Virus record (IMG/VR): IMGVR_UViG_2565956711_000009
Coordinates: 1 to 48,315 of that record
DNA from: a virus
Taxonomy: Duplodnaviria; Heunggongvirae; Uroviricota; Caudoviricetes
Direction: 5' to 3' (one strand)
DNA length: 48,315 bases
Below are positions 35,526-43,022 of this stretch, one piece after another (position 1 is the first letter of the stretch; each line of letters opens with the position of its first letter). The translations under genes and the position numbers were made by a program. The notes below the pieces were generated by a model that made no database searches, was not told the origin of the DNA, and worked only from the letters and a program-made list of their open reading frames with translations.

Positions 35526-36068
35526 TCACATAACCCCCAGCATCGATGTCACCATCGTCATCAGCGGCCCTACCTGCTCCGGCATGAGGCGAAACAATGA
35601 CGCTATGCCCTCGCTTACCTCCTTCATTTTCTGGTGCTCAGGCGCGTTCAGGAGAACGGCTTGCTTTGCTTCTGAACATTCCTTCATGGCAGATGCGATC
35701 AGCGACATGGTGTCGTTCTGCGGCGCCAGGCGTGTACGAAACTCAACAGGAAGAACAGCCATGATTGCCGGGGTCAGTTCTCTAACGTTCTCGCGGTACT
35801 GATCGGAGTCGAAGCGGTTATCCAGAAAGCGAAAAAGTTTCTGGCGCGCCCTGCTGATGTCTTCTGGGAAGCTGATGGCGGTACCGCCCTGCTCCCGGTA
35901 TTCGTTGATGATCAGCGCTGACACTACGTCCTGATTGTCCAGGGACGACGACCATGCACGGACCGCATCGCGGATTTTGTCGTGACCTGGCTCCGCCTTA
36001 GGTTGAGCGCGGTTTATCATCGCTCCCGGGTGTATTCCGGTATTGTGTTGATACGCAAGTGAATGCAT
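35526..36068 (-). CDS. CII-position regulatory protein, possibly YdaT-family
   Basis: 180 aa downstream of cro-like gene; family from weak recollection. Confidence 0.4.
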   Translation of the reverse strand: MHSLAYQHNTGIHPGAMINRAQPKAEPGHDKIRDAVRAWSSSLDNQDVVSALIINEYREQGGTAISFPEDISRARQKLFRFLDNRFDSDQYRENVRELTPAIMAVLPVEFRTRLAPQNDTMSLIASAMKECSEAKQAVLLNAPEHQKMKEVSEGIASLFRLMPEQVGPLMTMVTSMLGVM

Positions 36069-36428: not shown

Positions 36429-37205
36429 ATGGTTAAAAAAGACGATTTAAAAGAAGAATTCTCGAAGAGACTTCGCGCTGCATTGCTTGATGCTGGCGTG
36501 GGTGGGCGTGGGCAGGCTGGCAGGATCAGGGAAGCTATGAAGTCCCAAGGGATTGCTGTATCTGAGCCCGGGATCTGGAAGTGGCTTAACGCATCAGCAA
36601 TACCAGACCAAACCAATATCCTTGCACTTAGCCGCTGGCTTGGGGTTCGCCCTGAGTGGCTGGAATACGGAAGGAATGATCCTGAACCTGAACTGCACAG
36701 GGTATCATCCATCCCGCCTGAATCTGAGTGGGGAACTGTCGACGCTTGGGACAAAAATACCCCCCTACCTGACGATGAGGTGGAAGTACCGTTTCTGAAG
36801 GATATCGAGTTTGCGTGTGGTGATGGACGAGTACACGATGAGGATCACAATGGTTTTAAGCTCAGGTTCTCAAAGGCAACCCTCCGCCGCGTTGGAGCTA
36901 ACACAGATGGGTCTGGCATCCTGTGTTTCCCTGCTACTGGCGACAGCATGGAACCTGTGATACCGGATGGTACGACTGTAGCCGTCGATACGAACAACAA
37001 ACGCATAGTTGATGGGAAACTGTATGCCATTGGTCAGACAGATGGCGGGAATGGTCAACTCAAGCGCATTAAACAGCTGTATCGTAAGCCAGGTGGGAAG
37101 CTGATCATCCGCAGCTACAACAATGAGGCCTACCCTGATGAAGAAGCTGACATTGATGATGTTGAGATAATCGGCCGCCTCTTCTGGTACTCGGTACTGC
37201 TGTAG
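36429..37205 (+). CDS. cI: CI-type repressor (HTH + S24 peptidase domain)
   Basis: 258 aa; N-terminal HTH; C-terminal GDSMEP and LKRI catalytic motifs; no RBS, likely leaderless. Confidence 0.85.
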   Translation: MVKKDDLKEEFSKRLRAALLDAGVGGRGQAGRIREAMKSQGIAVSEPGIWKWLNASAIPDQTNILALSRWLGVRPEWLEYGRNDPEPELHRVSSIPPESEWGTVDAWDKNTPLPDDEVEVPFLKDIEFACGDGRVHDEDHNGFKLRFSKATLRRVGANTDGSGILCFPATGDSMEPVIPDGTTVAVDTNNKRIVDGKLYAIGQTDGGNGQLKRIKQLYRKPGGKLIIRSYNNEAYPDEEADIDDVEIIGRLFWYSVLL

Positions 37206-37321: not shown

Positions 37322-37906
37322 ATGAAAATGATTACAGGAATCGAAGCGCTAGCTTTACAGGCTACAGATATCCTTGCAGCCTCCAGGGCGGCGCAGCAAA
37401 TAGTTTCCCCACTTGCCAGAGCTAACTCGAGACTGGCACAGTCTGCCATGCCTGAAAATCCTGATGAAGTTAAGCACGCCTTAGATCGTGCCTCTATTGC
37501 GATTGCAGGTGTAGAGCGCAAATTAGTTGAGTGCAATGAAATAGTTAATTCATTAAACACACTTTCTGATGAAGATCTTCATTTCACCAATGAGTTTCTC
37601 ATTGAATTAAAGGTTAGGGCTGAAATGCTGACTGGGCACATAGAGAATTTACGCGATGTGTTTTCTCTAGTTGAAACGTCGAGCGCTTGGAAGCCTTACA
37701 TGCCATTGGTTTATGAAAAAAAACGCAAAGCAATTCGCTCTGTTTCTGATCTGCGAAATGCATATCTAAACATTGCTCTCCTGGCAGAGCAATTTGTCTC
37801 ACCCGTGCCGACCGTAAGCAGTAGTGTTGAGGGTAACTCAGAGGAATTTTCATCTGCACTCTCCGCATCACGCCAGCTGCTAAAAATCGGCTCGGAGTGG
37901 AGATAA
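37322..37906 (+). CDS. Unknown helical protein, first gene of cI-linked accessory operon
   Basis: 194 aa, no TM segments or recognised motifs; same strand as cI; stop overlaps next start (TAATG). Confidence 0.6.
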   Translation: MKMITGIEALALQATDILAASRAAQQIVSPLARANSRLAQSAMPENPDEVKHALDRASIAIAGVERKLVECNEIVNSLNTLSDEDLHFTNEFLIELKVRAEMLTGHIENLRDVFSLVETSSAWKPYMPLVYEKKRKAIRSVSDLRNAYLNIALLAEQFVSPVPTVSSSVEGNSEEFSSALSASRQLLKIGSEWR

Positions 37907-38316
37907 TGGCAAGAGTTAGTATCCATTCATCATTAAATAATTCGGCGTTTATACAAGGGCTTGCCAGAGAACTATCTCTTTATCTTAACGGCATCTCTTT
38001 ATCCGGACGCCTTGGAAGAAATGGCGGCTTTGAACGTAATAATTCAGCGCAAACATCCGGCATCCTCAAAATCCACTTCAAAGCACCAGGAGAAGGTTTT
38101 TGGACTGATGCTATGCGACAATCAACCAGAACGAGCAATAACTACATAGTATATGCGCGTCACTGGGATAAGGCTGATGCATTTCAAATCATCGCTGTGA
38201 TTGCACCAGACGCTCACGAAACGGCTGACGCACTCCTGCCCAGGATTATTGATATTACGGAACAAGATTTTCACTCGCTAAGTGAGAGTCAAATAGATCG
38301 CCTAGAACATTATTAA
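37906..38316 (+). CDS. Unknown protein with YoeB/RelE-like toxin-fold motifs
   Basis: 136 aa; segment KAPGEGFWTD...NNYIVYARHWDKADAFQIIAVIAPDAHE resembles recalled YoeB GFWSRRITEEHRLVYAV...LLIAACRYHY; unverified. Confidence 0.55.
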   Translation: MARVSIHSSLNNSAFIQGLARELSLYLNGISLSGRLGRNGGFERNNSAQTSGILKIHFKAPGEGFWTDAMRQSTRTSNNYIVYARHWDKADAFQIIAVIAPDAHETADALLPRIIDITEQDFHSLSESQIDRLEHY

Positions 38317-38340
38317 CCCGGCCACCGCGCCGGGTTTTTT
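38317..38340 (+). terminator. Rho-independent terminator ending the cI accessory operon
   Basis: CCCGGC-caccgc-GCCGGG followed by T6. Confidence 0.8.
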
Positions 38341-38344
38341 GTGC

Positions 38345-38554
38345 CTACTTCACAGCTTTACTACCCTTCCTGACTATCTCCGCCGCATCCCTGTTCACCC
38401 CCTTCCCTATCACGTTTCCCGTTTCCTTCCGGTACCGTTCCAGCTTGTCGATGATGTTTTGCTGGGTCATAGGTAAATCTGCCAGTGACAACTCCATGAC
38501 CGCCCGCCCCATGGCGTGAACCATCATGTTCACTCTTTCTTCATCCAAGTCCAT
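38345..38554 (-). CDS. Small hypothetical protein convergent with the cI operon
   Basis: 69 aa; strong AAGGAG RBS. Confidence 0.5.
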   Translation of the reverse strand: MDLDEERVNMMVHAMGRAVMELSLADLPMTQQNIIDKLERYRKETGNVIGKGVNRDAAEIVRKGSKAVK

Positions 38555-38620: not shown

Positions 38621-38705
38621 TTAACCAATAAATCATAACCTTAATAACCAACACAGAAATAATTAACCATTGGTTATTGACTGAAAATAACCATTAGTTA
38701 ATAAT
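38621..38705 (+). promoter_or_regulatory. pL-like early-left promoter with TAACC repeats and palindromic operator-like sites
   Basis: TTGACT(38677-38682)-17-AATAAT(38700-38705); palindromes TAACCA-T-TGGTTA (38664-38676) and TAACCA-T-TAGTTA (38688-38700); five same-orientation TAACC copies. Confidence 0.5.
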
Positions 38706-38751: not shown

Positions 38752-38782
38752 GGCGGACAGCAAGTCGCCTGCTTTTTAACAA
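38752..38782 (+). promoter_or_regulatory. Leader hairpin followed by rrn-type boxA-like element
   Basis: Hairpin GGCGGAC-agcaa-GTCGCC then TGCTTTTTAACAA (one mismatch to rrn boxA TGCTCTTTAACAA). Confidence 0.4.
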
Positions 38783-39006
38783 CATGCAAAGTCGGAACAG
38801 CACTCAGTAATCCTGTTTAGACCCCAACGTACAAATTCGGCGCAGCACCGGGCGCGATCCGGTCGGTGTGAGGCTACCACCTCGCGAGAGCGATAAAGGC
38901 GTGGGAACGGGCAACACTGGCGGGATGAGAGGTGCGAAGCGCAAACAGATTTATTCCAGTCCATTCGAAGTTGAGTGGGCTGGGCTGAATCACAAGAGGA
39001 TTTTTT

Positions 39007-39219
39007 ATGACTCAGACATACATTCCGGCGTGTTTAAGAGACCTTCCTAAGAAGCGTCAGAAGCCACGCAAACAGGCGATTAAAGAAGCGCAAGTGGAAG
39101 TTCTGAATAAGGCAATCGCATCGATAAAAGACGATATGCGTGCGTTCAAAACAGAAGAGCAGCGTCGCGGTCATTACCAGGCGATCAGCACACTCTCACA
39201 GATTCGTGATGAGTTGTAG
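39007..39219 (+). CDS. Small basic protein, first gene of early-left operon
   Basis: 70 aa with basic patch KKRQKPRKQ; AAGAGGA RBS. Confidence 0.5.
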   Translation: MTQTYIPACLRDLPKKRQKPRKQAIKEAQVEVLNKAIASIKDDMRAFKTEEQRRGHYQAISTLSQIRDEL

Positions 39220-39244
39220 AAGCTGATAGATAAAGCATTTCTCC

Positions 39245-39260
39245 CGCATCAGCGGGTAAC
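39245..39260 (+). repeat. Conserved intercistronic stem-loop 16-mer, copy 1
   Basis: CGCATCAGCGGGTAAC forming CCCGC-auca-GCGGG, upstream of next start codon. Confidence 0.6.
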
Positions 39261-39276
39261 TAAGTGGAGAGTACGT

Positions 39277-39465
39277 ATGCACAAGTGTCAATTCTGTGGG
39301 TACTTTCTGGCATCTGAAGAGATGCAGAGAATATCTGTAAACATGGTTGGCAGGCCTTACAACATCTGCATTCCATGCTCAGAAAAGTACAAAAAGAAAG
39401 GCCTGTGGGATTCGGCAAAAAACGATATCGACTGGAAATCACTTCCATGCGTCGATGAGACATAA
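39277..39465 (+). CDS. Small zinc-ribbon protein
   Basis: 62 aa with CQFC...CIPC. Confidence 0.5.
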   Translation: MHKCQFCGYFLASEEMQRISVNMVGRPYNICIPCSEKYKKKGLWDSAKNDIDWKSLPCVDET

Positions 39466-39466
39466 C

Positions 39467-39482
39467 CGCATCAGCGGGTAAC
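39467..39482 (+). repeat. Conserved intercistronic stem-loop 16-mer, copy 2
   Basis: Identical CGCATCAGCGGGTAAC 222 bp after copy 1. Confidence 0.6.
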
Positions 39483-39498
39483 GACAGAGGGTAAGTCA

Positions 39499-40167
39499 AT
39501 GATTCGTCTTAACAACGAAATTAAAAATCAGCTATGCCATAACCTGCTTCTCGCATCCCCATTGTTTGAGAAAGCGAAAGCTGCGGTTAATGAGAGGGCG
39601 AAAATTGTTGAAGAAATTCGACAGGCATTGCTCAAGCAGGAAAACACTAGCGATGAGCAAATAACTAAGGCTCGGGAAGATTTCAAAGATAACTCCTTCA
39701 TCAAGATGCAGGTCGGCGCTAAAACTGCAACTTTAAAGGTCATTATTAATGGTGAGTATCACGAATTAGCCAGGAACGGTTTGGATCATCGCTATCGCCA
39801 CCGTGGAAAACATATTGGTAAGCACGATCTTGAAAGCGACCTGTTCTTCGGAGCTTCCTTCGCGCCTGTAATTGATTCGGGTTTCGTTCCTGAAAGTTAC
39901 AGCACGCTGAAGAAAGTTGGAAAATTACACGACCGACTCACTGAATCGACGGTAACCATCAACGTTCTTTACGATGAAGTTGATGCCTTCCAATTGCAGG
40001 TTAAAGGTGCTCTAACCAAAGTCTCAACTGTTAAAAAACTGGCTGAGATGTGGCCTGAGGCAGTGCCATATTTGCCTGAGGTGGAACGCCGTGAAGCGAC
40101 CAGCACCGCACTTGCCATTCCCGTTGAAACGCTAAACGCCCTTTGCGGCATACCAAAGAATGAATGA
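39499..40167 (+). CDS. Hypothetical protein, unknown function
   Basis: 222 aa; GAGGG RBS; followed by terminator. Confidence 0.55.
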   Translation: MIRLNNEIKNQLCHNLLLASPLFEKAKAAVNERAKIVEEIRQALLKQENTSDEQITKAREDFKDNSFIKMQVGAKTATLKVIINGEYHELARNGLDHRYRHRGKHIGKHDLESDLFFGASFAPVIDSGFVPESYSTLKKVGKLHDRLTESTVTINVLYDEVDAFQLQVKGALTKVSTVKKLAEMWPEAVPYLPEVERREATSTALAIPVETLNALCGIPKNE

Positions 40168-40187
40168 CCCGCTCCGGCGGGTTTTTT
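40168..40187 (+). terminator. Rho-independent terminator
   Basis: CCCGC-tccg-GCGGG followed by T6. Confidence 0.75.
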
Positions 40188-40310
40188 ATCGGCCATACAT
40201 AGGCAGATTTTCGAGTCTGCCCATTTATGACAATCGGCGGTCATCCACCGCCCATAAGCGCAGAAGTCTTTGTTAACGTTCAGCGGCGCGGCTTAAGCGC
40301 GGAGATGATT

Positions 40311-40820
40311 ATGACTCTTATCGAATTGACCAAAAAGAAAATGGCAATTGAAGCCGAACTGGCTCAGTTGAAGGCGAAGTTTGTTGATGACACCTCACGC
40401 ATCGGTAAAGAGCTGATTGCCGTGTCTGAAGGTATCAACCAGGCCAATAAAGGCCTAACGGTTGAGATGGTTAAGCATGGCATGACGATCATTAACTTCG
40501 GTGACCCGAAACAAAGCATGGAGCGGCGCGGGTGTGTTGAAGACGCGATTAACGACATTGCGTCGGGGTTCACCCGTCTGAGCAAGCGTTATTTTGGCAC
40601 AAAAAACTACGCCCATTGGAGTGATCAGCGCGAAGACCATCGTTATGGATATGGCCCTAAACACGGTTCTATCTGCTTCAGAATCGGCTTAACTGGCACC
40701 GCACTTAATAAGCTGGCAAGCGGCGGGTTGAGTGATTACGACGCTGAATGCGCAATCTACTGCCTGATGAACATTGACTCCATTAATGCGGCAAATGCCA
40801 AAGCCCGGGAGGCATCATGA
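40311..40820 (+). CDS. Hypothetical protein with N-terminal coiled coil (possibly Gp157-like)
   Basis: About 169 aa from MTLIELTKKKMAIEAELAQLKAK; GGAG RBS; family from weak recollection. Confidence 0.45.
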   Translation: MTLIELTKKKMAIEAELAQLKAKFVDDTSRIGKELIAVSEGINQANKGLTVEMVKHGMTIINFGDPKQSMERRGCVEDAINDIASGFTRLSKRYFGTKNYAHWSDQREDHRYGYGPKHGSICFRIGLTGTALNKLASGGLSDYDAECAIYCLMNIDSINAANAKAREAS

Positions 40821-40975
40821 AAGTCACCCACAACGGCAAGCAGTACACCGCCAAAAAGCTCAACGATAACGAGTGGCAGCTGACGTCGGTATCTGCACCG
40901 CGTGAAAAGTTGGTACTTAACCGCTGGCAGATGCATATGGCTGGCCTCCTGGTACAGGTTGAGGTGAAGGTATGA
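40817..40975 (+). CDS. Small hypothetical protein
   Basis: 52-aa ORF below the track cutoff (MKVTHNGKQYTAKKLNDNEWQL...); GGGAGG RBS; ATGA overlaps at both ends. Confidence 0.4.
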   Translation: MKVTHNGKQYTAKKLNDNEWQLTSVSAPREKLVLNRWQMHMAGLLVQVEVKV

Positions 40976-41478
40976 TGCGAAAGCACAAGTTGCCAAGTGC
41001 TGAGGAGATAGATTCCTTGCTGGATTACAACCCTGAAACCGGAGTATTTACGTGGAAAGTGACGAAATCAGGATGGGTTGTAAAGGGGCGGCCTGCTGGT
41101 TCAAAAAACAATAATGGCTATCTCCGAGTTGGTATTGGAAGAAGGCACTACTTCCTTTCTCGAATCGCATTTTTCTTATGCACCGGGGAATCACCTGAAG
41201 AAGTAGACCATATCAATGGTGACAGAACAGATAACAGGGCGTGCAACTTAAGAGCCGCAAGCCGTCATGAAAACTGCCTCAATAAGTCGGTAAGAAGCGA
41301 CAGCAGGACTGGTGTAAAGGGCGTCTCATGGCGACCGGATGTTAAAAAATGGTCTGCACGATCAACTGATTCATCGGGGAAGAGAGTGTTTTTAGGTTAC
41401 TACCGCACCATCAGAGATGCGGTGGCTGTCCTTAATGATTTTCGGAGAGAACAGCATGGTGAGTTTGCAAAAAATTAG
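40972..41478 (+). CDS. HNH homing-type endonuclease with AP2-like domain
   Basis: YLRVGIGRRHYFLSRIAFFL...VDHINGDRTDNRACNLR...HEN motifs. Confidence 0.75.
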   Translation: MMRKHKLPSAEEIDSLLDYNPETGVFTWKVTKSGWVVKGRPAGSKNNNGYLRVGIGRRHYFLSRIAFFLCTGESPEEVDHINGDRTDNRACNLRAASRHENCLNKSVRSDSRTGVKGVSWRPDVKKWSARSTDSSGKRVFLGYYRTIRDAVAVLNDFRREQHGEFAKN

Positions 41479-41689
41479 CAGCAACTTGCACTACGGCACC
41501 ACCCCGCTCATTCGCCAGTGCGTCACGCCAGGCATGATGGCATTGCATGAAGGCCGCACCTATCGCGTCTCAGCAGTCATTCAGGAGCGCAAATGGGTGT
41601 ACCTGCACACCGATGCAGAAATTATCCGCCTCAGTGACTGCGTGATTGACGTCCTTCTGGACGGTCACGGAAACCCTATCCAGCACTAA
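41456..41689 (+). CDS. Small hypothetical protein
   Basis: About 77 aa from MVSLQKISSNLH; overlaps HNH gene end. Confidence 0.35.
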   Translation: MVSLQKISSNLHYGTTPLIRQCVTPGMMALHEGRTYRVSAVIQERKWVYLHTDAEIIRLSDCVIDVLLDGHGNPIQH

Positions 41690-41758: not shown

Positions 41759-42730
41759 ATGAGCGAAGTAACGGACTTAACTGTCATCGAAATCAAGCCG
41801 GAACAGGCCCCAGTGCTTTACGTAGCGGGCGGCCTTGACGCGTACCTTGAGCAAATCCGCCAGGCTGTAAACGAAGTGCCGGACCTGTCCACGAAGAAAG
41901 GCCGTGACCGTGTTGCCTCTCTGGCAGCGCAGGTGTCCCGCAGCAAGACGGCAATCGAAAAGCCGGGCCGTGAGTACCTGAAGCGCCTGAAAGAGGCTGT
42001 GCGTCCGGCTGAGGCCGAAATTAAGCGATTCGTTGATGCCTGCGACGAGCTGCGCGATGCGACCCGCCGCCCACTCACCGAATGGGAAGCCGAGCAGGAA
42101 CGCATTAAGGCTGAAGAAGCCATGAACGCGATGCACGCCGAAGCGCTGGAGATGAACATCAGGTTCGATCAGGAGCTGGCTGCCAAGTTCGAAGCGGACC
42201 ACGAAATGGCTCTACTGATGAACAAGGATTTTGACCGTGACCGCGAAGAGCAGCGCCGTCTGGCGGAACAGGCTCAGCGTGAACGTGATGAGCGGCTGAA
42301 ACAGGAAGCGGCAGAACAAGCCCGCCGCGATGCCGAAGCGAAGCACAAAGCGGAGATTGAAGCCGCAGCGCGCCGTGAAGCCGAAGAGAAAGCCCGCGCT
42401 GAACTGGCGGAGCGCCAGCGCGTCGAAGCGGAACAGCGTGCAGCTCGCGAGAAGCAGGAAGCGGAAGCCCGGGCGGAACGCGAAAAAGCCGCGGCGGTTG
42501 AAGCCGAGCGCCTGAAGGCCAAACAGGCCGAAGATGCCCGCCTGGCCGAAGAGAAGCGCCTCGCCGATGAGCAGGCAAAGCGTGAAGCTGACGTTAAGCA
42601 CCGCAAGACGGTCGGCACCAACATCGTTAACGCGCTCACCAGCCAAACCAGCTTAACCCGCGAGCAGGCTATCGAAGTGCTTACCGCTCTGAAAGATAAC
42701 CTGATCCCCTGCGCGAAAATTCATTACTGA
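41759..42730 (+). CDS. Coiled-coil protein with Ala/Glu/Arg/Lys-rich repeats
   Basis: 323 aa; low-complexity central region; AGGAGA RBS; upstream of gam-bet-exo. Confidence 0.55.
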   Translation: MSEVTDLTVIEIKPEQAPVLYVAGGLDAYLEQIRQAVNEVPDLSTKKGRDRVASLAAQVSRSKTAIEKPGREYLKRLKEAVRPAEAEIKRFVDACDELRDATRRPLTEWEAEQERIKAEEAMNAMHAEALEMNIRFDQELAAKFEADHEMALLMNKDFDRDREEQRRLAEQAQRERDERLKQEAAEQARRDAEAKHKAEIEAAARREAEEKARAELAERQRVEAEQRAAREKQEAEARAEREKAAAVEAERLKAKQAEDARLAEEKRLADEQAKREADVKHRKTVGTNIVNALTSQTSLTREQAIEVLTALKDNLIPCAKIHY

Positions 42731-42737
42731 GGCAACC

Positions 42738-43022
42738 ATGAACGCATACCTCACTTACGACCGCATCGAAGATCGGCGCTGGGCTGAGCAGCAGATCACC
42801 GACGAGAAAGAGAAGTGGATCGACGACCGGGCGCAGAAAATCATCGACATGATGCCTAAAGAGCCGTCCGGCCTCTTCCACTTCACGATCCCGATAGACT
42901 CCAGCCCATACGAAGGGCTTCGCAGCGATAAAGCTGGCGAGGCCTACAACGATTTCATTTCGGCAGTTGCTTACGCCCAGGCGGAATACGACTGGGAACA
43001 CCGTACCGGCTGCCCGTTTTAA
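42738..43022 (+). CDS. gam: Gam-like host nuclease (RecBCD) inhibitor
   Basis: N-terminus MNAYLTYDRIEDRRWAEQQ resembles recalled lambda Gam short form [21 protein letters not shown]; directly upstream of bet. Confidence 0.55.
   Translation: MNAYLTYDRIEDRRWAEQQITDEKEKWIDDRAQKIIDMMPKEPSGLFHFTIPIDSSPYEGLRSDKAGEAYNDFISAVAYAQAEYDWEHRTGCPF

What the first reader, a model, noticed from the sequence alone, without database searches (positions are those of the whole stretch)
39007..41689. Early-left region is a run of uncharacterised genes with an internal terminator and a free-standing HNH endonuclease
In place of lambda N-ral-sieB-cIII-kil, this phage has a 70-aa basic protein, a 62-aa zinc-ribbon protein and a 222-aa unknown protein ending at a terminator. 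A second unit follows with a coiled-coil protein (possibly Gp157-like, a family linked to phage resistance), a 52-aa ORF, and an HNH/AP2 endonuclease overlapping a further small ORF. Early-left regions are rich in host-takeover and anti-defence functions, and none of these proteins is recognisable as a known one. The HNH gene may be an independently mobile homing element.
Basis: partly seen in the sequence, partly recalled or inferred. Interest (0 to 1): 0.4.

Follow-up and report, generated by a model that had tools for sequence, protein, structure and literature searches.

The report
Mobile HNH gene in phage early-left operon
This is the ordinary, mosaic early-left operon of a phi80/HK639-like prophage; it does contain the cell-division inhibitor Kil, and its HNH gene is a selfish homing-type cassette sitting exactly at the start of kil.

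Summary
The ORFs and the internal terminator are real. The reading "all unknown, replaces N…kil" is only partly right.

The region is the pL operon of a phi80/HK639-like lambdoid prophage, probably from Enterobacter.
- **Immediate-early part:** p70, a 62-aa zinc ribbon and a 222-aa protein of Pfam family Nmad5. It ends at a canonical intrinsic terminator (40166-40189).

The HNH gene is a 512-bp cassette inserted at ATGAT|CACTACGG, the stop/start overlap of orf52 and kil.
- It takes over kil's ATG and supplies a new ribosome-binding site and ATG for kil.
- It is absent from 5,426 complete E. coli genomes and from phi80, which keep an intact empty site.
- It is present in about 10% of related kil loci, always at this site.
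- Mean pairwise difference is 1.6% in the cassette, against 11.4% and 4.6% in its flanks.
- One copy has lost its catalytic core by an internal deletion.

This supports a homing-type element, a known kind.

In passing: the gene slot between a conserved 26-nt hairpin cassette and the terminator holds at least 41 unrelated gene families across relatives. phi80 N is one of them.

The parts
38677..38705 (+). pL promoter (TTGACT-17-AATAAT). It lies in a region homologous to the phi80 OL/pL region.
   Evidence: phi80 annotation.
38752..38782 (+). Leader hairpin GGCGGACAGCAAGTCGCC followed directly by a boxA-like TGCTTTTTAACAA. This matches 12 of 13 bases of the rrn boxA consensus, which I quote from memory.
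38828..38839 (+). boxB-like hairpin position (CGTA-CAAA-TTCG, with a T.T mismatch here). Its stem covaries in relatives (CACG/CGTG versus CGCA/TGCG).
39007..39219 (+). p70: a small basic, probably helical protein of unknown function (phrog_5305), with conserved core KKRQKPRKQAIKEA. It is an optional cassette.
39244..39260 (+). Copy 1 of the conserved hairpin core CCGCATCAGCGGGTAAC, part of the AAAGCATTTCTC-hairpin-SD 'gene-start cassette'.
39277..39465 (+). 62-aa zinc-ribbon protein (phrog_19863). The gene is bracketed by the two hairpin copies and is absent from E. coli NCTC9040, where p70 is followed directly by Nmad5.
39466..39482 (+). Copy 2 of the hairpin core, followed by GACAGAGGGTAAGTCA-ATG of the Nmad5 gene.
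39499..40167 (+). Nmad5-family protein (Pfam PF18757, full length). Biochemical function unknown.
   Evidence: literature.
40166..40189 (+). Intrinsic terminator tL (stem-loop plus T6).
40160..40310 (+). Conserved non-coding terminator module: tL, a second hairpin at 40236-40252, and the SD GGAG at 40301-04. It is homologous to the two annotated terminators of HK639 and precedes different genes in different phages.
40311..40820 (+). p169 (phrog_13608): a long N-terminal helix plus an alpha/beta domain, with invariant core YFGTKNYAHWSDQREDHxYGYGPKHGS. Function unknown.
40817..40975 (+). orf52, homologue of phi80 gp44 (PHI80_44; phrog_6396). Function unknown.
40972..41478 (+). Free-standing HNH_3 endonuclease gene (168 aa) with an AP2-like C-terminus below Pfam cut-off. 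It starts on what is kil's ATG in empty alleles.
40977..41488 (+). The 512-bp inserted cassette. It replaces 4 bp (CAAC, GCAC and similar) of the empty site ATGAT-NNNN-CACTACGG.
41456..41689 (+). kil (KilR-type FtsZ inhibitor, 77 aa). Its SD GGAGAG (41444-49), its ATG and its first 11 codons are supplied by the HNH cassette.
41759..42730 (+). Agt/Mog homologue (context, just outside the finding).
42738..43022 (+). GamL RecBCD inhibitor (context).

Best explanation
The region is the pL (early-left) operon of a mosaic phi80/HK639-like lambdoid prophage.

**Transcription.** Transcription from pL (38677-38705) crosses a boxA-type leader. It then expresses three immediate-early cargo genes: p70, the zinc ribbon and Nmad5. 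It meets a strong intrinsic terminator at 40166-40189. Only antiterminated transcripts continue into p169, orf52, HNH, kil, agt, gamL, recT and exo (inferred by analogy with lambda, phi80 and HK639).

**The HNH gene.** It is a 512-bp free-standing homing-endonuclease cassette lodged in the 4-bp stop/start overlap between orf52 and kil. It uses kil's original ATG and its translational coupling to orf52, and it carries a replacement SD and ATG so that kil is still made.

**Inferred mechanism.** When an HNH-positive and an HNH-negative lambdoid genome meet in one cell, the enzyme cuts the conserved orf52/kil junction of the empty allele. Recombinational repair from the HNH-positive genome then copies the cassette in, with very short co-conversion tracts.

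**What is shown and what is not.** Shown: the anatomy, the empty site, the presence/absence polymorphism, the low diversity relative to flanks, and a decayed copy. Inferred: cleavage specificity and the repair pathway.
For: **Operon identity**
- homology to phi80 OL/pL/leader, gp44, kil, agt and gamL.
- the structural genes are HK639-like.
- cI, RecT, YqaJ-type exonuclease and integrase flank the region.

**Terminator**
-.
- It is homologous to the annotated terminators of HK639.
- It lies 190-925 nt after the hairpin cassette in 45 of 50 related loci.

**Kil, Nmad5 and GamL:**

**HNH mobility**
- Exact insertion boundaries against the empty sites in E. coli NCTC9040 and phi80.
- No nucleotide match in 5,426 complete E. 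coli genomes or 50,697 phage records, although 131 of those E. coli genomes carry other parts of this region.
- 8 of 80 kil-anchored and 3 of 50 cassette-anchored IMG/VR loci carry the gene, always at the same junction.
- 17 distinct flank haplotypes, including two deeply different left-flank classes, carry a 99.8-100% identical insert.
- In the kil-seeded sample, which was not selected on HNH, mean pairwise difference is 1.6% for HNH against 11.4% for orf52 and 4.6% for kil.
- 15-16 nucleotide differences between insert haplotypes give only 3-6 amino-acid changes, and no full-length copy has a stop codon.
- HNH-negative phages are 99% identical to the window from exactly 41489 rightwards.
- L034 carries an 87-aa in-frame deletion derivative that lacks the catalytic core.
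- L073 has a different ORF at the same junction and a paralogous HNH/AP2 gene just after kil.
- The HNH_3 domain is above Pfam cut-off, and the protein matches a PADLOC 'homing endonuclease' model.
Against: - No cleavage or homing assay exists, so the target site is inferred only from the insertion point.
- Co-conversion tracts would have to be almost nil. Flanks differ right up to the junction, which ordinary mosaic recombination at a conserved junction could also produce.
- The AP2 DNA-binding domain is below Pfam's cut-off.
- The L002-L011 loci were retrieved by exact protein identity, which inflates apparent conservation. The kil-seeded sample was not selected on HNH and shows the same pattern.
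- How transcription passes the terminator is unresolved. The window has no phi80 N and no HK639-type putL.
Confidence: 0.8

Rival explanations
1. The HNH gene is not self-mobile. It is one more mosaic module that spreads with orf52 and kil by ordinary homologous recombination at conserved gene junctions. Its product serves the phage, for example in recombination, replication or competition with co-infecting phages.
For: - Lambdoid early-left regions are extremely mosaic, with conserved junction sequences.
- The junction also holds a non-HNH insert in L073.
- Flank divergence reaches the insertion point.
- The ORF is under purifying selection.
Against: - The insert is 3 to 7 times less diverse than both immediate flanks, and it sits on at least 17 flank haplotypes.
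- It is precisely bounded to the base in every copy.
- A decayed copy exists.
- Paralogous HNH/AP2 genes occupy other intergenic junctions in relatives.
- About 90% of relatives do without the gene.
Confidence: 0.15
2. The uncharacterised genes (p70, the zinc ribbon, Nmad5, p169, orf52) form an anti-defence or host-takeover island. p70 acts as the N-like antiterminator that lets transcription pass tL.
For: - p70 is the first gene after pL and lies upstream of the first terminator. It has a conserved Lys/Arg-rich segment.
- The slot is hypervariable and rich in small acidic orphan proteins, as anti-defence loci often are.
- In Dhillonvirus, a point mutation in nmad5 lets the phage escape the Tmn defence system, and the gene resisted cloning, apparently because it is toxic (PMC11846954).
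Against: - p70 has no homology to any N family and has only 9 homologue clusters.
- p70 occurs with HK639-type putL-like leaders (3 contexts) as well as boxA-type leaders (9 contexts). A further 41 boxA-type leaders have neither p70 nor phi80 N.
- Some relatives with the same leader 3' end lack p70.
- None of these proteins matches a PADLOC model.
- No function is known for any of these families.
Confidence: 0.25

Closest known systems
Free-standing HNH homing endonuclease genes of phages, e.g. T4 mobE (PMC2790892) and the intronless-homing elements reviewed in PMC2988022
   Same: - An intergenic, compact HNH ORF between conserved genes.
- Presence/absence polymorphism at a fixed site.
- Lower diversity than the flanks.
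- Degenerate copies exist.
   Different: - It lies in a temperate lambdoid prophage early-left operon rather than a lytic T-even genome.
- It takes over the start codon of the downstream gene (kil) and supplies a new one.
- Co-conversion appears negligible.
- Cleavage has not been shown.
phi80 early-left operon (JX871397; Rotman et al. 2012, cited)
   Same: - pL and the boxA-type leader (85% identity).
- The order gp44-kil-agt-gamL-recT-exo.
- The hairpin cassette in front of the first gene.
   Different: - phi80 has N in the slot, where the window has p70, the zinc ribbon and Nmad5.
- phi80 has no p169 and no HNH.
- phi80 has an extra 278-aa gene 41 after kil.
HK639 early-left operon with its putL-like antiterminator RNA (HM208537 annotation)
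   Same: - The first ~50 nt of the pL transcript.
- The terminator module.
- The orf52-kil-gamL order.
- The structural genes (87% identity).
   Different: The window lacks the putL-like sequence. It has a boxA-type leader instead.
Nmad5 (Pfam PF18757), a 'nucleotide modification associated domain'; Dhillonvirus nmad5 (PMC11846954)
   Same: A full-length match well above Pfam's threshold. It is a stand-alone protein of about 210-230 aa, like 132 representative clusters.
   Different: It sits in the immediate-early slot, not near head genes and not next to any modification enzyme. Its activity is unknown in every case.
Rac KilR / phi80 Kil FtsZ inhibitors
   Same: Sequence family and genomic position.
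   Different: The N-terminus is replaced: MIN... becomes MVSLQKISSNL..., encoded by the HNH cassette.

Membership tests
Free-standing HNH homing endonuclease gene | HNH (beta-beta-alpha metal) catalytic domain | tested here: met
   Pfam HNH_3 scores 41 bits against a cut-off of 24.8. The motif VDHINGDRTDNRACNL...HEN is intact, and all full-length copies are open.
Free-standing HNH homing endonuclease gene | A separate DNA-binding module (here AP2) | tested here: inconclusive
   AP2 scores 19.1 bits against a cut-off of 33.3, E = 1.6e-3. Paralogues in relatives carry AP2 hits.
Free-standing HNH homing endonuclease gene | Presence/absence polymorphism at one precise site, with an intact empty allele | tested here: met
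   the site reads ATGAT|512 bp|CACTACGG when occupied and ATGAT-NNNN-CACTACGG when empty.
Free-standing HNH homing endonuclease gene | The element is younger than, and incongruent with, its flanks | tested here: met
   Mean pairwise difference is 1.6% for the insert against 11.4% and 4.6% for the flanks. The insert lies on 17 flank haplotypes.
Free-standing HNH homing endonuclease gene | Degenerate copies exist (the homing cycle) | tested here: met
   L034 carries an 87-aa core-deleted copy.
Free-standing HNH homing endonuclease gene | Site-specific cleavage of the empty allele and super-Mendelian inheritance | not testable with these tools
   This needs enzyme assays and phage crosses.
Nmad5 (PF18757) | Full-length match above Pfam's gathering score | tested here: met
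   108.5 bits against a cut-off of 27, covering profile positions 1-206 of 206. PGAP names close E. coli homologues Nmad5.
Nmad5 (PF18757) | Genomic association with nucleotide- or DNA-modification genes | tested here: not met
   Its neighbours are p70, the zinc ribbon and the terminator. No modification enzyme lies in the slot.
Kil/KilR FtsZ inhibitor | Sequence family membership | tested here: met
   NCBIfam PRK11354 scores 111.7 bits against a cut-off of 92. It also matches phrog_294 'Kil' and Pfam KilR in identical relatives, and is 96% identical in nucleotides to phi80 kil.
Kil/KilR FtsZ inhibitor | Blocks FtsZ ring assembly / causes filamentation | not testable with these tools
   Experimental. 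The altered N-terminus is untested.
Sipho_Gp157 (PF05565), for the 197/169-aa protein | Sequence or fold similarity to Gp157 | tested here: not met
   No Pfam hit at E <= 0.1. BLASTP against a real Gp157 protein gives nothing. Foldseek finds no characterised match.
Lambda-type N antiterminator, for p70 | First gene after pL, upstream of the first terminator | tested here: met
Lambda-type N antiterminator, for p70 | Homology to a known N family | tested here: not met
Lambda-type N antiterminator, for p70 | Co-occurrence with a cognate nut-type leader | tested here: not met
   p70 occurs with both boxA-type (9) and putL-like (3) leaders. 41 boxA-type leaders lack it.
Intrinsic (Rho-independent) terminator | G+C-rich stem-loop followed by a U-tract, at the end of a gene | tested here: met
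   It is homologous to the annotated terminators of HK639.

The most novel reading that the evidence does not exclude
The stretch between a conserved hairpin/SD cassette (26 nt of it, GCATTTCTC-CCGCATCAGCGGGTAAC, were used as the exact search pattern; usually followed by GACAGAGGGTAAG-N3-ATG) and the conserved tL terminator module is a dedicated, hypervariable immediate-early cargo slot in a large lineage of enterobacterial lambdoid phages.

At least 41 unrelated, mostly tiny and often very acidic orphan gene families occupy it. phi80 N is just one occupant. The window's zinc-ribbon and Nmad5 genes are two more, stacked in tandem.

If so, antitermination in most of these phages would not depend on a slot-encoded N protein. 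It could be RNA- or host-factor-based, using either putL-like leaders or an rrn-like hairpin+boxA leader as in the window. The slot would then be a reservoir of anti-defence or host-takeover genes, exchanged by recombination at the two conserved non-coding borders.
Probability: 0.35. Interest if true: 0.55.

Novelty: new member of a known kind. Interest (0 to 1): 0.35.

Why it matters
The HNH result gives a clean natural example of a homing-type endonuclease gene spreading among temperate lambdoid prophages. It rewires the start of a host-killing gene (kil) in the process, and the empty and occupied sites are defined to the base, so homing crosses can be set up directly.

The rest of the region is a correction rather than a discovery: Kil, Nmad5 and phi80 gp44 homologues are present. 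p169 is a small Enterobacterales-restricted family with a confident predicted fold and no characterised relative, which makes it a reasonable target for anti-defence or host-takeover screens.

The hypervariable "N slot" bounded by conserved non-coding borders, if confirmed, would be a useful place to mine for immediate-early phage effectors. It also raises the question of how these phages antiterminate without a recognisable N.

Tried and rejected
- **Rfam.** Nothing at gathering thresholds across the whole window. Only a weak isrK hit on the terminator, 21 bits against a gathering score of 50. Rejected as a terminator artefact.
- **phi80 N against p70.** No similarity.
- **HK639 putL against the window.** No similarity by blastn or nhmmer.
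- **Shared nutL/nutR hairpin.** An inverted-repeat search between the pL and pR leaders found nothing convincing.
- **PDB sequence and profile searches.** No relatives for p70, p169, Nmad5 or HNH.
- **Foldseek on the p169 model.** PDB best E = 0.42, with superoxide-dismutase-like noise at TM about 0.3. BFVD gave only uncharacterised proteins.
- **AF2 on Nmad5.** With only 5 close sequences the model reached pLDDT 60.9, too poor to search with. Deeper homologues could not be submitted for folding.
- **PADLOC.** Only the HNH protein hit, on a 'homing endonuclease' model.
- **Pfam and PHROGs on 20 slot-cargo proteins.** Pfam gave only two weak sub-threshold hits on one protein, and every PHROG family matched has no known function.
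- **Genome-contig scan with HNH.** Only one close hit, in Enterobacter intestinihominis.
- **Diversity of the slot upstream of orf52.** My clustering was confounded by the shared spurious N-terminal extension, so I do not use it.
- **ARAGORN on tRNA-like leader ends.** Only 1 of 10 loci gave a call.
Full report

Yes. All seven ORFs are present at the stated coordinates.

The internal terminator is canonical. A 7-bp G+C-rich stem with a 4-nt loop lies at 40166-40183, followed by T6, and it overlaps the TGA of the 222-aa gene. It folds at -16.1 kcal/mol, z = -2.8.

Two gene starts need correcting.
- The "197-aa coiled-coil protein" starts at ATG 40311 (169 aa). GGAG lies 6 nt upstream, every homologue begins MTLIELT, and the 28-codon extension lies over a conserved non-coding module.
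- The "further small ORF" most likely starts at ATG 41456, behind GGAGAG at 41444-49. Gene callers on identical relatives give a 77-aa product.

**2. What the region is**

The window is a complete lambdoid prophage.
- cI (Peptidase_S24) lies at 36429-37205, RecT and a YqaJ-type exonuclease follow the finding, and integrase closes the window.
- Its structural genes are HK639-like (87% identity over 64% of the first 25 kb).
- Its OL/pL/leader region is 85% identical to that of phi80.
- pL is at 38677-38705.

Against phi80:
- orf52 is the gp44 homologue (90% nucleotide identity).
- The small ORF is kil (96%).
- The next genes are agt (89%) and gamL.
- phi80 N and phi80 gene 41 have no counterpart in the window.

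Family searches agree.
- The small ORF is a KilR-type FtsZ inhibitor (NCBIfam PRK11354, 111.7 bits against a cut-off of 92; phrog_294 "Kil").
- The 222-aa protein is a full-length Nmad5 (PF18757, E = 6e-31).
- The 94-aa protein is GamL.

So the statements "in place of N-ral-sieB-cIII-kil" and "none is recognisable" are partly wrong.

p70, the zinc ribbon, p169 and orf52 match only PHROG families of unknown function. PGAP calls them hypothetical in E. coli.

**3. The HNH gene**

*Insertion site.* Alignment with the empty sites of E. coli NCTC9040 and phi80 defines the insertion to the base.
- Empty: ...GGTGAAGG(C/T)ATGAT-CAAC-CACTACGGC...
- Occupied...ATGAT-[512 bp, 40977-41488]-CACTACGGC....

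In empty alleles the ATGA is the orf52-stop/kil-start overlap. In the window the HNH ORF uses that ATG. The last 33 bases of the insert (41456-41488) encode a new ATG and the first 11 codons of kil, and a new SD lies just upstream.

*Distribution.*
- The HNH DNA has no match in 5,426 complete E. coli genomes or in 50,697 phage records, even in distant mode. Yet 131 of those E. coli genomes carry other parts of this region.
- The exact protein occurs in 551 blocks of the assembly collection. In all ten places inspected it lies between orf52 and KilR, in prophages with different repressors, replication genes and recombination modules.
- The one close species-representative hit is in Enterobacter intestinihominis. 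This fits the Enterobacter phage hits.
- In a kil-seeded IMG/VR sample, not selected on HNH, 8 of 80 loci carry the gene.
- In a sample seeded on an unrelated leader motif, 3 of 50 carry it.

*Diversity.*

| Segment (kil-seeded HNH-positive loci) | Mean pairwise difference | Distinct haplotypes |
|---|---|---|
| 160 nt to the left (orf52) | 11.4% | 9 |
| 512-bp HNH insert | 1.6% | 3 |
| kil (201 nt) | 4.6% | 8 |

Over all copies, 17 flank haplotypes carry an insert that is 99.8-100% identical, with a second insert type at 97.1%. These include two deeply divergent left-flank classes...GGTGAAGGTATGAT and ...GGGGAAAAAATGAT, each also seen in HNH-negative alleles.

The two main insert types differ at 15-16 nucleotides but only 3-6 amino acids, and no full-length copy has a stop codon. 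The protein is therefore under purifying selection.

*Other signs of mobility.*
- HNH-negative phages L069 and L108 are 99% identical to the window from exactly 41489 rightwards, but only about 90% identical to the left.
- L034 carries an in-frame deletion derivative (87 aa) that has lost the catalytic core.
- L073 has an unrelated 66-aa ORF at the same junction and a paralogous HNH/AP2 gene directly after kil.
- Other relatives carry further HNH_3/AP2 genes at other junctions.

Together these are the comparative signatures of a free-standing homing endonuclease gene, a well-known kind in lytic phages (PMC2790892, PMC2988022). Cleavage itself is not shown.

The near-absence of co-converted flank is the main point that ordinary junction recombination could also explain. 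I put homing-type mobility at about 0.8.

**4. The other proteins**

*p169.*
- It has 24 homologue clusters. Those that carry a source organism name are from Enterobacterales (Kluyvera, Enterobacter, Ewingella, Buttiauxella, Yersinia, Pantoea).
- It has an invariant core, YFGTKNYAHWSDQREDHxYGYGPKHGS.
- AlphaFold gives a confident model (pLDDT 92.4): a 44-residue N-terminal helix plus an alpha/beta domain.
- Foldseek finds no PDB neighbour (best E = 0.42) and only uncharacterised viral proteins (E = 1.4e-4, TM 0.50).
- It has no similarity to Sipho_Gp157.

*Nmad5.*
- The family has 132 representative clusters, almost all stand-alone proteins of about 200-230 aa.
- It has no solved relative, even by profile search.
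- My model was too poor to use (pLDDT 61).
- The only experimental information found is from Dhillonvirus. A K-to-E substitution in nmad5 lets the phage escape the Tmn defence system, deleting the gene does not, and the gene could not be cloned, apparently because it is toxic (PMC11846954).
- In the window it is not next to any modification enzyme.

*p70.* It has only 9 homologue clusters, with a conserved Lys/Arg-rich segment.

**5. What replaces N?**

I could not settle this. The window has neither phi80 N nor the HK639 putL-like RNA.

Its leader has a hairpin followed directly by TGCTTTTTAACAA (38752-38782). This matches 12 of 13 bases of the rrn boxA consensus, which I quote from memory, and the hairpin-then-boxA order is that of rrn leaders rather than lambda nut sites.

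About 45 nt further on lies a hairpin whose stem covaries among relatives (CACG/CGTG against CGCA/TGCG). In the window it is weakened (38828-38839).

Among 145 distinct pL leaders:

| Leader type | Contexts | With p70 | With phi80 N | With neither |
|---|---|---|---|---|
| putL-like (HK639 type) | 55 | 3 | 1 | 51 |
| boxA-type (window, phi80, HK225) | 56 | 9 | 6 | 41 |
| other | 34 | 1 | 0 | 33 |

This does not support p70 as the cognate antiterminator. I give that reading about 0.25, bundled with the anti-defence idea.

**6. Found on the way**

The 17-nt hairpin CCGCATCAGCGGGTAAC occurs twice in the window (39244, 39466; 0.01 expected by chance) and brackets the zinc-ribbon gene. E. coli NCTC9040 has p70, then the hairpin, then Nmad5, with no zinc ribbon.

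With its flanks (AAAGCATTTCTC ... GACAGAGGGTAAG-N3-ATG) it is conserved almost exactly in front of very different genes.
- It is present in 68 of the first 145 loci fetched.
- 41 unrelated protein clusters follow it. They include phi80 N, Nmad5 and the zinc ribbon, and many are tiny, very acidic orphans.
- Pfam and PHROGs assign no known function to the 20 tested.
- In 45 of 50 loci the terminator module follows 190-925 nt later.

The classical "N position" is therefore a hypervariable immediate-early cargo slot with conserved non-coding borders. This is the most novel reading the data allow. It needs a systematic survey and experiments.

**7. Verdict**

HNH mobility holds. "All unknown", "no kil" and "Gp157-like" do not.
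- The HNH cassette is a new member of a known kind, and the operon is ordinary lambdoid mosaicism.
- Interest is moderate to low (0.35). The cargo-slot and antitermination question is a modest upside.

Noticed in passing
window 39232-39276 and 39455-39498; loci L146-L225: A conserved hairpin/SD 'gene-start cassette' (AAAGCATTTCTC-CCGCATCAGCGGGTAAC-GACAGAGGGTAAG-N3-ATG) precedes at least 41 unrelated gene families in related prophages. One of them is phi80 N. In 45 of 50 loci the conserved terminator module follows 190-925 nt later. The result is a hypervariable immediate-early cargo slot.
   Followed up: partly
window 38752-38782 and 38828-38839: The pL leader has a hairpin followed immediately by TGCTTTTTAACAA, an rrn-like boxA in rrn-like order (12 of 13 bases; consensus quoted from memory). 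About 45 nt downstream is a hairpin whose stem shows compensatory changes in relatives. The window has no recognisable N and no putL.
   Followed up: partly
L127, L132, L099, L071 (3049-3118), L091, just upstream of the hairpin cassette: Several related prophages have a tRNA-like T-arm and acceptor end (GGTTCGAnTCC...CACCA-like) in the pL leader after a putL-like RNA. ARAGORN calls a tRNA-Ile in only one of the ten loci tested. The window does not have this.
   Followed up: partly
window 37322-38316 (+): Downstream of cI, in the position of rexAB, lie a 194-aa unknown protein and an overlapping 139-aa YafO-like toxin (Pfam YafO_toxin, E = 3e-16). They end at an intrinsic terminator at 38315-38336. 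This may be a prophage-expressed toxin-antitoxin or exclusion module.
   Followed up: no
window 38345-38554 (-): A 69-aa ORF (phrog_3975, unknown function) lies on the opposite strand between the cI-operon terminator and pL. HK225 (gene 042) and HK639 (gene 46) have a small reverse-strand ORF at the same position.
   Followed up: no
L073 3792-3992 and 4248-4757: In one relative the orf52/kil junction holds an unrelated 66-aa ORF instead of HNH. A different HNH_3/AP2 gene (169 aa) sits directly after kil, where agt lies in the window. These junctions are recurrent landing sites.
   Followed up: partly
L034 4001-4264: An internally deleted HNH copy (87 aa) joins residues ~1-41 to ~121-168 in frame, removing the catalytic core. 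It keeps the 3' end that provides kil's start.
   Followed up: yes
window 40131-40187: A weak Rfam hit to the Salmonella Gifsy-1 sRNA isrK (21 bits against a gathering score of 50, E = 0.19) lies over the end of the Nmad5 gene and the terminator. It is probably only the terminator hairpin.
   Followed up: no
window 35526-36068 (-): The gene in the cII position is a 180-aa YdaT-domain protein, as in phi80, where it is annotated CII. It follows an 81-aa Cro-like gene with only a 30-nt gap, which leaves no room for a lambda-style nutR there.
   Followed up: no
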